A program made the position numbers and the translations under genes. 64,000 bases of DNA from NCBI GenBank assembly GCA_964016885.1, contig OZ024763.1:5146001-5210000 (forward strand), written 5' to 3'. Positions 3,790-61,020 of the stretch are shown in pieces. Position 1 is the first letter of the stretch, and each line of letters starts with the position of its first letter. This stretch comes from Eledone cirrhosa (Eukaryota). The notes under the pieces were generated by a model. It saw only the letters and a list, made by a program, of their open reading frames with translations. It made no database searches and was not told the origin of the DNA.

Positions 3790-4055
<266 letters not shown>

Positions 4056-4229
4056 TGAACAATTGTCTTGCTAGTTAAATCCTGATATATATAGTCTAGG
4101 GATTGTAATGTCCAGTTACTGTAGGTTCACCAGAGTGAGCACTCAATACATAGTTTCCAGTAGGTATATTGGTGTTGTACTAAGCAGAGTGTAATACTAA
4201 TAATAATAAAAAGGACAAAGTGTTAGATT

Positions 4230-9812: not shown

Positions 9813-10818
9813 TAATAATTGTTTCTACTTTTGGCACAAGGCCAGCAATTACTCAGTGTATTACTGGTACTATATTTTATCAACCCCGTAAGGATGAAAG
9901 GCAAAGTTAACCTCAGCGGGATTTTAACTCAGATCATAAAGGGATGTAACTCTTTGCTGCAAAGCATGGCGTCCGACCCTCTACCGATACTGCCAATCTA
10001 CCGCCCTAACATGGCGTCCAACTCTCTAACGATACTGCCAATCTACCGCCCTAACATGGCGTCCAACTCTCTGCCGATACTGCCAATCTACCGCCCTAAC
10101 ATGGCGTCCAACTCTCTGCCGATACTGCCAATCTACCGCCCTAACATGGCGTCCAACTCTCTGCCGATACTGCCAATCTACCGCCCTAGCATGGTGTCCG
10201 TCCCTCTACCGATACTGCCAATCTACCGCCCTAGCATGGCGTCCAACTCTCTACCGATACTGCCAATCTACCGCCCTAACATGGCGTCCGACTCTCTACC
10301 GATACTGCCAATCTACCGCCCTAGCATGGTGTCCGACCCTCTACTGATACTGCCAATCTACCGCCCTAGCATGGTGTCCGACCCTCTACCGATACTGCCA
10401 ATCTACCACCCTAACATGGCGTCCGACTCTCTACCGATACTGCCAATCTACCGCCCTAGCATGGTGTCCGACTCTCTACTGATACTGCCAAGCCACCGCC
10501 CTAGCATGGTGTCCGACTCTCTACCGATACTGCCAATCTACCGCCCTAGCATGGTGTCCGACCCTCTACCGATACTGCCAATCTACCGCCCTAACATGGC
10601 ATCCGACCCTCTACCGATACTGCCAATCCACCGCCCTAACATAGTGTCCGACTCTCTACTGATACTGCCAAGCCACCGCCCTAACATGGCGTCCGACTCT
10701 CTACCGATACTGCCAATATACCGCCCTAACATGGTGTCCGACTCTCTACCGATACTGCCAATCTACCGCCCTAACATGGTGTCCGACTCTCTACCGATAC
10801 TGCCAATCTACTGCCTTT
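9813..10818 (-). repeat. SINE family 1 copy whose 5' head is amplified into a 45-bp tandem array (about 19 units)
   Basis: SINE body at 9813-10010 (minus). The unit catggcgtccgactctctaccgatactgccaatctaccgccctaa is the reverse complement of the SINE head. Confidence 0.9.
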
Positions 10819-11489
10819 AATATAAAGAAATAATAATCATGTATAACAATTAAACCTTTTTTTTTACCCAATTTTTTTTAGCAAAGGGCCTCAAATTTCA
10901 GATAGTTTAGGGTAGGGCCTCAACAAATGAAAGTCCCTTCTCTGTTATAATGTAATATATACACCTCATCCTACTTAGTACATTCCTTCCCAGCTCTTCC
11001 AGTCATACAATACGGTGGTCCCTTTCCTTCTATTATTTATACAGATACATTATATCTTTCTCTCCCTAAACATCTTATAACCAACCCTAACATAACAGCT
11101 TCATACCCAGAAAGAATCCTTTTATATGTGTGTGTATGTATGTGTGTGTATGTATATGTATATGTGTGTGTATGTATGTGTGTGTGTATGTATGTGTATG
11201 TATGTATATGTGTGTGTATGTATGTGTGTGTAAACCAGCATTCAAATTGGAGAGCCTTGCTGTGAAACACAATCATCTCTGACAATGAATACAGAGAGAT
11301 AATCCCTTATGGTTGATTCCCAACCTGCTAGAAATAGCAGAGAGGTTCGTTAGCATACCCAGGATGTATTTCTTCTTCTTTGATGTTATAAAATTAGAAT
11401 CGATAAACCTTTCTGGGTATACCCTTGTTCTATTGATGTCAATGGTGAATTCTTCACTTGCAAAGATCAGTGTGAAGAATTGCTGTCCT

Positions 11490-15120: not shown

Positions 15121-15162
<42 letters not shown>

Positions 15163-15163
<1 letters not shown>

Positions 15164-15340
15164 ACGAAGGAGTTGTAGTAAGTAACCAGATGGACCATAA
15201 TGCACCAGAGTACTCAATACTTAGGGTAATAGAGTGGGTAATAGGAAAAAGTATGACCCCGACGGCAGAGGAAATAGTCTAGAAATAGCCATCGAAAAAC
15301 GGCTTGAGCTCTGCCGTCGGGGTCATACTTTTTCCTATTT
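15163..15340 (-). mobile_element. Fold-back hammerhead-associated element, family A
   Basis: Body is the reverse complement of 17895-17998. Inverted repeat about 15240-15270/15310-15339. Flanked by (TA)n. Confidence 0.8.
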
Positions 15341-15353
15341 ATATATATATATA

Positions 15354-15697
15354 ATAATGAAATGACAGGAGGCTGGATTTGTGTAAATCCTTGAAAGGTT
15401 TATTATACTATGATCATTTCAATGACCGGGTTCCGTATGAATCCGGTGATATCATCAGGTATTCGAAATATAATACGTGAATGTAATAGATAAAATCCAT
15501 GGGGCTGAAAATCAAGGATTTACACAAATCCAGCCTCCTGTCATTTCATTATAATATTTAACTCCGTAATAGCACCACCAACTACAAAAACAAAGATGGT
15601 TGAACTGCCTTATGTTGAGTACTCTCTATATTATTACATTACGATTGACCATACGGAATAGACCAGCTCTATACAGTGGTAAACCTCAAACCTGAAT
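15354..15697. mobile_element. Penelope-like pLTR remnant with a 41-bp perfect inverted repeat
   Basis: Arms 15354-15394 and 15512-15552. The hammerhead lies in the spacer. (TA)n flanks. Confidence 0.7.
15405..15462 (-). ncRNA. Minimal type-I hammerhead ribozyme
   Basis: Minus strand: ATAC-CTGATGA-TATCACCGGATTCATACGGAACCCGGTCATT-GAA-ATGATCAT-A-GTAT-AATAAA. Stem I ATAC/GTAT, stem II ACCGG/CCGGT, palindromic stem III. Confidence 0.8.
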
Positions 15698-15709
15698 ATA
15701 TATATATAG

Positions 15710-17780: not shown

Positions 17781-17818
<38 letters not shown>

Positions 17819-17821
<3 letters not shown>

Positions 17822-17996
17822 CCAGTAAGACCCCGACGGCTGAGCTCAAGCCGTTTCGACGGCTAATTCTGGACCGTCGAAACGGCTTGAGCTCAGCCGT
17901 CGGGGTCTTACTGGTTCCTATTACCCACTCTACTACCCCAAGTATTGAGTACTTTGGTGCGTTACGGTCCACCTGGTTCCTTACCACTTTTCCTTC

Positions 17997-17998
<2 letters not shown>
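17819..17998 (+). mobile_element. Fold-back hammerhead-associated element, family A
   Basis: Perfect 44-bp inverted repeat 17819-17862/17874-17917. GAA-ACGGC-ttgagctca-GCCGT-C motif. (TA)n on both sides. Confidence 0.8.
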
Positions 17999-18031
<33 letters not shown>

Positions 18032-25928: not shown

Positions 25929-25965
<37 letters not shown>

Positions 25966-25968
<3 letters not shown>

Positions 25969-26102
25969 GAAGGAAATGTGGTAAGGAACCAGGTGGACCA
26001 TAACGCACCAAAGTACTCAATACTTAGGGTAGTAGAGTGGGTAATAAGTCCAGAATTAGCCGTCGAAACGGCTTGAGCTCAGCCGTCGGGGTCCCACTCG
26101 TT

Positions 26103-26140
<38 letters not shown>

Positions 26141-26274
26141 GAAGGAAATGTGGTAAGGAACCAGGTGGACCATAACGCACCAAAGTACTCAATACTTAGG
26201 GTAGTAGAGTGGGTAATAGGTCCAGAATTAGCCGGCGAAATGGCTTGAGCTCAGCCGTCGGGGTCCTACTCGTT

Positions 26275-26279
<5 letters not shown>
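25966..26279 (-). mobile_element. Two tandem family A elements separated by (TA)n
   Basis: 25966-26106 and 26137-26279 are nearly identical. Each is a minus-strand body plus an inverted GAAAC..GCCGTC segment. Confidence 0.85.
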
Positions 26280-58976: not shown

Positions 58977-60408
58977 CATCATCATCATCATCATCATCAA
59001 CGTTTAACGTCCGTGTTCCACGCTTGCATGGGTTTGGACGGGGGTAGTCCCACTTGAGGCAAGAGTGATTGTCTTGCTCGCATAGGACTGTCTGGCAGGT
59101 TTTCTACAGTTGGATGCCCTTCCTAACACCAACCACATTTACAGTGTGGGTCTGGGAGGTTTTTACCGTGTTGCCTACACGGCCACATTACAGCGTGGAC
59201 TGTGTGTTTTTTTGTCGTGACACCTACACGATCTCATTTGTTTCGGCCCGGATGGCGCGGCACCAACATAACTTTACATAGGACGGGGTGGTGTGGATGG
59301 GGTGGGTGTGGTGGTGGTGGGACGGGGTGTATTTTGTTAGAGATGCCTACTGGCAAGGCGGGTCTTCTCTGTTACTGAGTACCGCCAAAGGTCTCGGTCC
59401 AGTGACATTGTCTTGGAGAGGTGTAAGTGTGTGAGGTCGGAGTTTATCAGCTCGTCCCAGGTTTTTCTAGGTCTGCCTATTCCGTGGCTACCGTCTATCT
59501 TTATTGCCCTGCACTTTGTTATACAGCTATCGACTTTCATGCGCATCACGTGTCCATACCAACGTAGCCTTCTCTCGAGTAAACAACATCTGATCCCTCT
59601 TATCTCTAATTTTTTCCTTAGTTCGTTTATGCTTTGCCGTTCACGTATATTACTGTTACACATCCAGCGGAGCATGCAAGCTTCGTTCCTCTCTAGTCTG
59701 CGTATATCCTCTGCACACAATGCCCAGGTCTCACTGCCATGCAACATTGCTGTTCGTATGCAGGCATCGTACAACCTGCCTTTCATTTTTAGGGAGAACC
59801 CTTTAGCAGCTAATAGTGGTATAAGCTCTCTGAACTTTTTCCAACCAGTTCTGACTCTAGCTACAGTACTTTCAGAGCACCCTCCCCCACTGCTGATTTT
59901 ATCGCCCAGGTAACGGAAGCTGTCCACTATTTCTATAGAACCCTCTGCGCAATTGAAAGAGCTAGTATTGTGTGGGCACTTGCTGCTACTTATTGCACCA
60001 GAACACCGGCCACATGTAAAATCTATGTTCTTAGTTAGCTTACCTGTGATCCCACTACATCTTTTATGCACCCATACTTTGCATTTAGGACACAAAATGG
60101 AGTTTCTACCTACGCCTTTCCTACACACCGAGCACGACCATTTCCCAGAAGGGACCGCCGCCTTGTTTTCTTTCCTACAAACTAGAACTTTGGTCTTAGC
60201 CAGGTTAATTTTAAGTCCTTTTGACTCTAGGCCGTGCTTCCATGTTTGGAATTTCTTTTCTAGCTCGGCCATTGATTCCGCTATGAGTGTCAGGTCGTCT
60301 GCGTATAGGAGTTCCCATGGGCAGCCTGTCTTGAACTCCTCTGTTATAGCCTGAAGGGCAATAATAAATAGTAGGGGGCTGAGAACAGAGCCCTGATGGA
60401 CGCCAACT
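58977..60408 (-). mobile_element. 5'-truncated RTE-clade LINE inserted in (TA)n
   Basis: RT region plus 3' UTR ending in (TGA)n. Confidence 0.95.
59337..60408 (-). CDS. Partial RTE reverse transcriptase with a PHD-like zinc finger (5'-truncated open frame)
   Basis: The frame extends upstream of the annotated Met: GVHQGSVLSPLLF...LLYADDL. Then GLKINLAKT, CSVC..CPKC..HKRC..CGRC, FRYLG, LHGSETW, RLRWYGHV, GRPRKTW. Confidence 0.9.
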
Positions 60409-60409
60409 T

Positions 60410-61020
60410 TTATATATATATATATTATATATATCTATATATATATATTATATATATATTATATATTATATATATCTATATATATATATTATATATATAT
60501 ATATTATATATATATATTATATATTATAAACACACATATATATATATATTATATATTATATATATATTATATATTATAAACACATACATATATATACATA
60601 ATATATATATATGTATTATATATATATACATATATATATATATTATATATATATGTATTATATATATACACACACACACACATACATATATATACATTAT
60701 ATATATATATATATATACACACATTATATATCCTTATTAGTTCTTAGCTGTGTATCTGTTTCCTCCAATGTGGTGAATATAATGGCTATTGTTGGGTCCC
60801 TTAAGTAGAGCTGTTGTGACCTAGTTCAATTAAAGAGAACAATACTAAGTAAATAGAAACATCACACATACATACATATATGTATATATATATATATGTA
60901 TATATGTATATATATGTATATATGTATATATATGTATATATGTATATATATGTATGTATGTGTATGTATGTATGTGTATATATGTATGTATATATATGTG
61001 TGTATGTATATATATGTATG

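What the first reader, a model, noticed from the sequence alone, without database searches (positions are those of the whole stretch)
15354..15697. Intact-core hammerhead between 41-bp perfect inverted repeats
The minus strand has all conserved core nucleotides (CUGAUGA, GAAA, UA), 4-bp stem I, stem II, palindromic stem III ATGATCAT and AATAAA just after stem I. The base of stem II is imperfect. This is the best candidate for a still-active ribozyme, and the layout matches an inverted pLTR.
Basis: partly seen in the sequence, partly recalled or inferred. Interest (0 to 1): 0.75.

Follow-up and report, generated by a model that had tools for sequence, protein, structure and literature searches.

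The report
Hammerhead end of non-coding Penelope passenger
This is a short, folded-back leftover of a young protein-less repeat found thousands of times in the genome; its predicted self-cutting RNA motif is the family's normal form, and the repeat likely borrows the copying enzyme of a Hydra-type Penelope retrotransposon, a known kind of system.

Summary
In detail: a type I hammerhead motif (minus strand, 15462-15405) lies between perfect 41-bp inverted repeats (15354-15394, 15512-15552). The copy is not special: 1,817 genomic sites carry the identical 58-mer and 4,787 match the core pattern. The U.U at the base of stem II is fixed in the family, is not decay, and has a published cleaving precedent (axolotl HHR_Amex2). 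The 344 bp are two head-to-head, 5'-truncated 3' ends of a non-coding Penelope-like element (unit about 2.9 kb), in a TA run. One piece stops at end-site 1, the other about 145 nt further on; the repeat is their overlap. The hammerhead changed less than its flanks between subfamilies (2/58 vs 33/242), but cleavage is untested, the monomer is predicted to misfold, and copies do not begin at the cut site. The tail matches one coding Hydra-clade family in spacing, bulged hairpin and weak sequence similarity: the likely enzyme donor. This scan has already reported Hydra-type ends, the two-end rule and the hairpin on other DNA of this genome. New here: this family and its candidate donor.

The parts
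15354..15511 (-). Inverted, 5'-truncated pseudo-LTR piece ending at end-site 1 (no tail)
   Evidence: 0 of 158 differences from the young-subfamily majority; 66 of 166 classified pieces end at this site
15405..15462 (-). Type I hammerhead motif: 4-bp stem I, CUGAUGA, long stem II with U.U at its base, GAAA, 8-nt palindromic stem III
   Evidence: 1,817 identical sites; 4,787 core-pattern sites
15409..15409 (-). A17; predicted cleavage 3' of this base (between 15409 and 15408)
   Evidence: hammerhead numbering; cleavage not tested
15399..15404 (-). AAUAAA just after stem I; role unknown (possible polyadenylation signal or distal stem I)
   Evidence: same majority sequence in both subfamilies; an AAUAAA also follows the hammerhead of the coding Hydra family
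15354..15394 (.). Left arm of the 41-bp perfect inverted repeat
   Evidence: the stretch present in both pieces
15512..15552 (.). Right arm of the 41-bp perfect inverted repeat
15512..15517 (+). Head-to-head junction with a 5-of-6 microhomology
   Evidence: the same junction recurs at L002 and nearly at L003, with different 3' flanks
15512..15697 (+). Direct, 5'-truncated 3' piece with the ~145-nt tail, ending at end-site 2
   Evidence: 4 of 186 differences from the majority; 82 of 166 classified pieces end here
15561..15620 (+). Bulged hairpin (ACUC/GAGU, 2-nt bulge, 4-bp inner stem) just past end-site 1; candidate signal for the reverse transcriptase
15340..15353 (.). (TA)n target, left side
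15698..15708 (.). (TA)n target, right side
   Evidence: 143 of 148 site-1 and site-2 ends run into TA

Best explanation
The 344 bp are two head-to-head, 5'-truncated copies of the 3' end of a young, non-coding repeat family (unit about 2.9 kb) sitting in a TA run, likely pasted in by the reverse transcriptase/GIY-YIG enzyme of a Hydra-clade Penelope-like element. Shown: family size, two fixed 3' ends about 145 nt apart, TA flanks, no coding frame in the unit, family-wide U.U hammerhead. Inferred mechanism: the donor enzyme cuts both strands of a TA run; the two DNA ends each prime copying of the same element RNA, one just before hairpin 1 (site 1) and one just before hairpin 2 (site 2); both copies stop early and are joined through a short microhomology, so the stretch copied twice becomes the 41-bp inverted repeat. 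The hammerhead is likely a slow ribozyme that works only as a dimer or with protein help and acts on longer tandem transcripts; the RNA that gets copied is uncut or re-joined. This single-hammerhead copy is likely inert. Odds: element identity 0.9; Hydra-clade enzyme 0.75; the particular donor family (HyB) 0.5; the motif cleaves in some setting 0.55.
For: Family: 40 of 40 scored candidates (of 1,330) match; best 97-100%. Eight hammerhead-to-hammerhead units of 2,376-2,932 bp; longest ATG frame 70 aa in one A unit, 88 aa in one B unit region, no tblastn hit at E<=1 to four neighbouring PLE protein pieces. Ends: 148 of 166 classified pieces stop at site 1 or 2; 39 of 51 head-to-head pairs are one of each; 143 of 148 ends run into TA. 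One template: arms share rare variants at 2.9 per 1,000 sites (17 in 5,822; 50 pairs) against 0.21 in 2,872 unlinked pairs. Selection: 2 of 58 majority differences in the hammerhead against 33 of 242 in flanks between the young subfamily and an older one chosen by its tail alone, one-sided Fisher p 0.018; one change is A-U to G-U, the other is in loop II. Uncut template: 1 of 173 pieces starts within 2 nt of the cut site; genome-wide 19 junction-like sites there against 13 at a control position. Donor: a coding family with RWK, DKT, YRDD, CxCx5C and YIGST has two ends 145 nt apart (14 and 9 of 23 copies), the same hairpin geometry (span 64 vs 60, hairpin to end 138 vs 135), a U at the base and a mismatch at pair 4 of stem II, and global similarity above 0-1 of 1,000 shuffles; three other PLE families show none. 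Literature: layout and one-sided tail (PMC8557442); internal priming, protein-assisted cleavage, hammerhead dispensable for insertion in vitro (PMC11167929); U.U variant cleaves (PMC7229834).
Against: No Rfam hammerhead hit. No covariation above shuffles in 24 aligned copies (score reached by 67 of 500). The monomer is predicted to pair its CUGA box with the palindrome (p 0.9-0.98); the double hammerhead (-22.6 kcal/mol) is less stable than two misfolded monomers (2 x -13.9) or the cofold optimum (-31.4). G10.1-C11.1 is described as highly conserved in PLE hammerheads (PMC4209133) and is absent. The donor link is weak in sequence: nhmmer with the family profile gave only E 3.5-6.8; the older subfamily scored z 2.0, 14 of 500 shuffles; the best body matches to HyB loci were AT-rich low-complexity only. 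Arm sharing could come from gene conversion. A rare coding master with this pseudo-LTR is not excluded: only two units were scanned for frames in detail and searches score 40 candidates. Loci were picked by my queries, so end counts are not a random sample.
Confidence: 0.8

Rival explanations
1. The hammerhead no longer cuts; it is kept as a structural or protein-binding RNA element (or hitchhikes), and the element spreads from uncut tandem transcripts.
For: Predicted misfold and three stem II mismatches; no copies begin at the cut site; 3 of 50 head-to-head pairs share a change in G12, A13 or A14 in both arms; catalytic mutants did not affect insertion in vitro for the anole element (PMC11167929).
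Against: All core positions are unchanged between subfamily majorities while flanks differ at about 14% of sites; a U.U variant cleaved 22% in 1 h as monomer and more as dimer (PMC7229834); folding energies leave out core tertiary contacts (own knowledge).
Confidence: 0.35
2. The family is the truncated end of a protein-coding Penelope-like element whose full copies I did not find.
For: Earlier scan notes found many such fold-backs to be ends of coding Hydra elements; genome searches score only 40 candidates.
Against: Eight tandem units of 2.4-2.9 kb close on themselves; 40 of 40 scored hits to the unit's 5' part are 92-100% alike; the older subfamily has a collinear shorter body; coding frames next to copies belong to other families with their own ends.
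Confidence: 0.08
3. The element is a large retrozyme: tandem transcripts are cut by paired hammerheads, circularised and copied from the circle.
For: One older copy (L111) runs from site 2 round to site 2 as a single unit between TA runs; more-than-unit copies are common; a re-joined circle also gives no 5' ends at the cut site; retrozyme circles are documented (PMC7229834).
Against: Compatible with the best explanation as a sub-case.
Confidence: 0.3
4. A DNA transposon (MITE) with 41-bp terminal inverted repeats, or a designed hairpin that presents the ribozyme.
For: Perfect 41-bp repeat, TA flanks.
Against: The right arm is internal (145 bp continue beyond it); overlap length and junction vary from copy to copy; many copies have the pieces in direct order.
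Confidence: 0.01

Closest known systems
Hammerheads in pseudo-LTRs of Penelope-like elements (Cervera and de la Pena 2014, PMC4209133; parts 1-2 of 4 of the text read)
   Same: Type I motif in the 3' repeat; short stem I, long stem II, small palindromic stem III; pairs on opposite strands; thousands of truncated copies.
   Different: No G10.1-C11.1 pair (U.U instead); 8-nt palindrome; the carrier has no reading frame.
Hydra clade and inverted/tailed insertions of EN+ PLEs (Craig et al. 2021, PMC8557442; passages; supplements not read)
   Same: (TA)n target; inverted 5'-truncated copy next to a direct copy; tail on one end only; candidate donor has RWK, DKT, CxCx5C.
   Different: Tail about 145 nt rather than 30-40; this family encodes no protein. 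Non-autonomous PLEs are described there for Chlamys (MRC1), not for Hydra in the passages seen.
Animal non-LTR retrozymes (PMC7229834, passages and section 15; bioRxiv 10.64898/2026.07.22.740005, part 1 of 5 and passages)
   Same: Non-coding, type I hammerhead, head-to-tail units, proposed PLE dependence; axolotl HHR_Amex2 also has a U.U at the base of helix II (figure not seen, so the exact position is unchecked).
   Different: Unit 2.4-2.9 kb against 51-972 bp; mostly truncated fold-backs, not arrays; RNA circles not shown here.
Anole Poseidon element PAc (Frangieh et al. 2024, PMC11167929; parts 1-2 of 4 read)
   Same: Two fixed internal start sites that define the tail; AT-rich target; insertion from uncut RNA.
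   Different: Different clade; there the tail lies in the ORF start and spans 30-40 nt; here it is non-coding and about 145 nt.

Membership tests
Type I hammerhead ribozyme | CUGANGA, GAAA and UH around three stems, ends in stem I | tested here: met
Type I hammerhead ribozyme | Purine-pyrimidine pair 10.1-11.1 closing stem II (usually G-C) | tested here: not met
   U.U; 0 sites with G..C in this context, 45 sites with a non-U at 11.1; cleaving U.U precedent in PMC7229834
Type I hammerhead ribozyme | Match to an Rfam hammerhead model | tested here: not met
   no hammerhead family at E<=10
Type I hammerhead ribozyme | Stems supported by covariation or constraint | tested here: inconclusive
   no covariation above shuffles; lower divergence than flanks, p 0.018
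Type I hammerhead ribozyme | Site-specific self-cleavage | not testable with these tools
   needs in vitro transcription
Penelope-like element insertion | Pseudo-LTRs in partial tandem and inverted 5'-truncated copy, tail on one end | tested here: met
Penelope-like element insertion | Hammerhead in the pseudo-LTR | tested here: met
Autonomous EN+ Penelope-like element | Single ORF with RT and GIY-YIG endonuclease | tested here: not met
   longest ATG frame 70 and 88 aa in the two units scanned; no tblastn remnant
Hydra-clade dependent element | (TA)n target | tested here: met
   143 of 148 ends; not unique to Hydra
Hydra-clade dependent element | 3' end shared with a coding Hydra family | tested here: inconclusive
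   same spacing and hairpin, global similarity 0-1 of 1,000 shuffles, but nhmmer E 3.5-6.8
Hydra-clade dependent element | Mobilisation in trans by the Hydra protein | not testable with these tools
   needs purified protein or a cell assay
Non-LTR retrozyme | Non-coding head-to-tail unit with a type I hammerhead | tested here: met
Non-LTR retrozyme | Small unit (up to about 1 kb) | tested here: not met
   2,376-2,932 bp against 51-972 bp
Non-LTR retrozyme | Accumulates as circular RNA | not testable with these tools
   only contig runs of unrecorded kind were offered

The most novel reading that the evidence does not exclude
A 2.9-kb protein-less RNA is mobilised by one identifiable Hydra-clade enzyme that reads two short bulged hairpins and primes from both cut DNA ends on one RNA; its hammerhead is kept by selection in a self-locked fold (catalytic box paired to its own palindrome) that opens only on dimerisation or enzyme binding and yields a large circular template. 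This would be a natural donor-passenger pair showing that about 200 nt of 3' signal let a Penelope enzyme write kilobases of unrelated sequence into TA repeats.
Probability: 0.2. Interest if true: 0.65.

Novelty: new member of a known kind. Interest (0 to 1): 0.36.

Why it matters
The window copy itself is ordinary mobile-element debris. The family is useful as a test system: what hammerheads do in Penelope-like elements is still open, and here a non-canonical motif is conserved although inserted copies come from uncut or re-joined RNA. A non-coding passenger with a candidate donor lets the RNA signals for priming be separated from protein-coding constraints.

Tried and rejected
Rfam scans gave only microsatellite-driven miRNA hits, no hammerhead. 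Neptune-like element beside one copy (L036): own minimal hammerhead, no similarity to the unit in 20 of 20 loci; rejected as donor. The 1,077-aa frame in L098 ends at its own terminus; rejected. Hydra family HyA (L040): has the hairpin but a much shorter hairpin-to-end distance (72) and no significant similarity; less likely. Pfam found no family for 4 of 4 PLE protein pieces, so clade labels rest on motifs from PMC8557442. A canonical G..C version of this hammerhead: 0 sites. How many copies repair the C.C mismatch was left uncounted. Expression: no RNA holder listed; the two read-layings were contigs of unrecorded kind and say nothing on expression. De-duplication failed (no coordinates in headers); its counts are superseded. 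Four of the 24 rows of alignment A1 were picked for a non-U at 11.1, so its column counts there are biased. Window frames of 110 codons or more are simple-repeat frames or retroelement fragments by eye; host-gene context was not established. Lunse et al. (RNA Biol, hammerhead variants in PLEs) is not held; it may already describe 10.1/11.1 variants. Paper searches for this family in octopus, for a Hydra tail stem-loop and for non-autonomous PLEs listed nothing that describes it by title or abstract start; supplements of PMC8557442 were not read and may hold the donor family.

Full report
Observation. The sequence is as described. The perfect inverted repeat is 41 bp, 15354-15394 and 15512-15552. 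On the minus strand a type I hammerhead motif runs from 15462 to 15405, with A17 at 15409 and AAUAAA at 15404-15399. Stem II has U.U at its base, C.C at pair 4 and A.C at pair 10. No Rfam hammerhead model matches, and the fold alone is not unusual (z -1.5).

It is one of thousands. A DNA search of G000 (3.0 Gb) gave 1,330 candidates; all 40 scored matched. The core pattern has 4,787 matches and 0 for the reversed control; the window's exact 58-mer has 1,817. Only 45 sites have a non-U before GAAA in this context and none has G..C. The window's left piece equals the young-subfamily majority at 158 of 158 sites, the right piece at 182 of 186. The mismatch is therefore the family state, and the copy is young.

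Anatomy. In tandem copies the order is pseudo-LTR with hammerhead, a 41-nt block, a tail, then the body of the next unit. The window holds two pieces of this, head to head: a minus-strand piece that ends after the 41-nt block, and a plus-strand piece that starts at the block and carries the tail. Of 182 distinct pieces in my loci, 166 could be classified: 66 end at site 1, 82 at site 2, 10 read through, 8 end elsewhere; 39 of 51 head-to-head pairs have one end of each kind; 143 of 148 ends run into TA. The loci were chosen by my queries, so these are not random counts. Junctions and overlap lengths vary between copies, so the 41-bp repeat is only the stretch copied twice. The window's junction has a 5-of-6 microhomology, and the same junction recurs at L002 with a different 3' flank. 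This layout, with a tail on one end, is the published one for endonuclease-bearing Penelope-like elements (PMC8557442, passages); the tail is about 145 nt instead of 30-40.

The family is non-coding. Eight hammerhead-to-hammerhead units measure 2,376-2,932 bp. The unit holds internal duplications and GC-rich blocks but no frame over 70 aa from ATG; an older subfamily has a shorter collinear body with none over 88 aa; neither shows a tblastn hit to four neighbouring PLE protein pieces. Coding frames next to copies belong to other families with their own ends.

Is the hammerhead functional? For: in an older subfamily chosen by its tail alone (30 loci, 32 hammerheads) the majority differs from the young one at 2 of 58 hammerhead sites and 33 of 242 flank sites (one-sided Fisher p 0.018). 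One change turns A-U into G-U, the other lies in loop II, and U.U is kept. An axolotl hammerhead with U.U at the base of helix II cleaved 22% in one hour as monomer and more as dimer (PMC7229834, section 15; figure not seen). Against: G10.1-C11.1 is called highly conserved in PLE hammerheads (PMC4209133); there is no covariation above shuffles; the monomer is predicted to pair CUGA with the palindrome, and the double hammerhead (-22.6) is less stable than two such monomers (-27.8). I put cleavage in some setting at about 0.55. The window copy has one hammerhead, so it cannot dimerise in cis.

The copied RNA was not cut there. A cut linear template would leave copies starting just after A17. 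Only 1 of 173 pieces starts within 2 nt of it. Genome-wide there are 19 junction-like sites at the cut position and 13 at a control position 4 nt away (the patterns differ slightly). Arms of head-to-head pairs share rare variants at 2.9 per 1,000 sites against 0.21 for unlinked pairs, and 3 of 50 pairs share a core change. This fits two primings on one template that need not have a working core, though gene conversion between arms is not excluded. It agrees with the anole element, where priming is internal at two sites, the hammerhead cuts only with protein and is not needed for insertion in vitro (PMC11167929). A re-joined circle would look the same; one exact unit-length copy (L111) hints at it, 8 tandem pairs are uninformative.

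Signals and likely donor. The consensus fold showed a bulged hairpin just past site 1 (window 15561-15620). An earlier scan note on such a hairpin was in view when I looked for it elsewhere. A strict form occurs in this family, in a coding Hydra-type family and in about ten other single sequences with different inner stems, most followed by a TA run, against 1 hit in 1.9 Mb of shuffled sequence. A second hairpin (GCUC/GAGC) lies about 7 nt past site 2 in 9 of 10 read-through loci (the tenth did not match the locator) and in the older subfamily; its inner stem is weak in the young subfamily. One coding family, here HyB, carries RWK, DKT, YRDD, CxCx5C and YIGST, the motifs given for the Hydra clade. 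Of 25 HyB loci, 23 had the end block: 14 stop at one site and 9 about 145 nt further on. Hairpin span is 64 against 60 nt, hairpin-to-end 138 against 135; its long-armed hammerhead also starts stem II with U and has a mismatch at pair 4. The window's right arm aligns to three HyB ends better than all but 0-1 of 1,000 shuffles; three other PLE families give nothing. But nhmmer finds no significant match and the older subfamily scores only z 2.0. HyB is the best candidate, not a proven donor.

Comparison and novelty. It works like the known hammerhead-bearing ends of Penelope-like elements, and like a retrozyme in being non-coding; it fails the tests for an autonomous element (no ORF) and for a typical retrozyme (unit three times the longest reported). 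Earlier reports of this scan already describe, on other DNA of this genome, Hydra-type ends, the two-end rule, the twin hairpins and shorter non-coding passengers; look-ups by this sequence found nothing. New here are this 2.9-kb family, the evidence that its U.U hammerhead is constrained, and a candidate donor matched by tail geometry. Verdict: new member of a known kind, interest 0.36.

Noticed in passing
window 15162-15339: Directly left of the finding lies a second fold-back of another Hydra-type family (HyA, as in L040), sharing the same TA run; further HyA ends at about 3956-4057, 17815-17999, 25965-26107, 26137-26279 and 33364-33454, most with the bulged hairpin.
   Followed up: partly
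window 42121-42299, minus strand: 3' end of a third PLE family (97% like L098 3481-3660) with a minimal hammerhead whose GAAA reads AAAA in this copy.
   Followed up: partly
L040 2217-4568, minus strand: Open 784-codon Hydra-type RT-endonuclease frame; its pseudo-LTR has no plain CUGANGA box.
   Followed up: no
L032 23-77: A GC-rich hairpin about 55 nt upstream of the hammerhead is kept across subfamilies while its loop varies; absent from the window copy.
   Followed up: partly
L032 about 1630-2650: Two tandem 513-bp repeats with GC- and CpG-rich blocks, also present in older subfamilies; possibly an internal promoter.
   Followed up: no
L146, L162, L170 (HyB 3' end): Hammerhead with an 85-nt stem-loop II and U.G at its base.
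   Followed up: partly
L036 1573-4059: Neptune-like element with a compact hammerhead about 1.3 kb after its frame in sister copies; 2,176 search candidates, 98-100% alike in the 40 scored.
   Followed up: partly
window 59337-60434, minus strand: 365-codon 3' fragment of a LINE-type reverse transcriptase, by eye; also at about 27297-27560.
   Followed up: no
window 9819-10820: 333-codon open frame made of a 45-bp tandem repeat; probably a minisatellite.
   Followed up: no
runs X4 and X5: The pseudo-LTR also occurs at low depth in runs labelled as two other organisms, with no difference listed at the base of stem II; source unclear.
   Followed up: no
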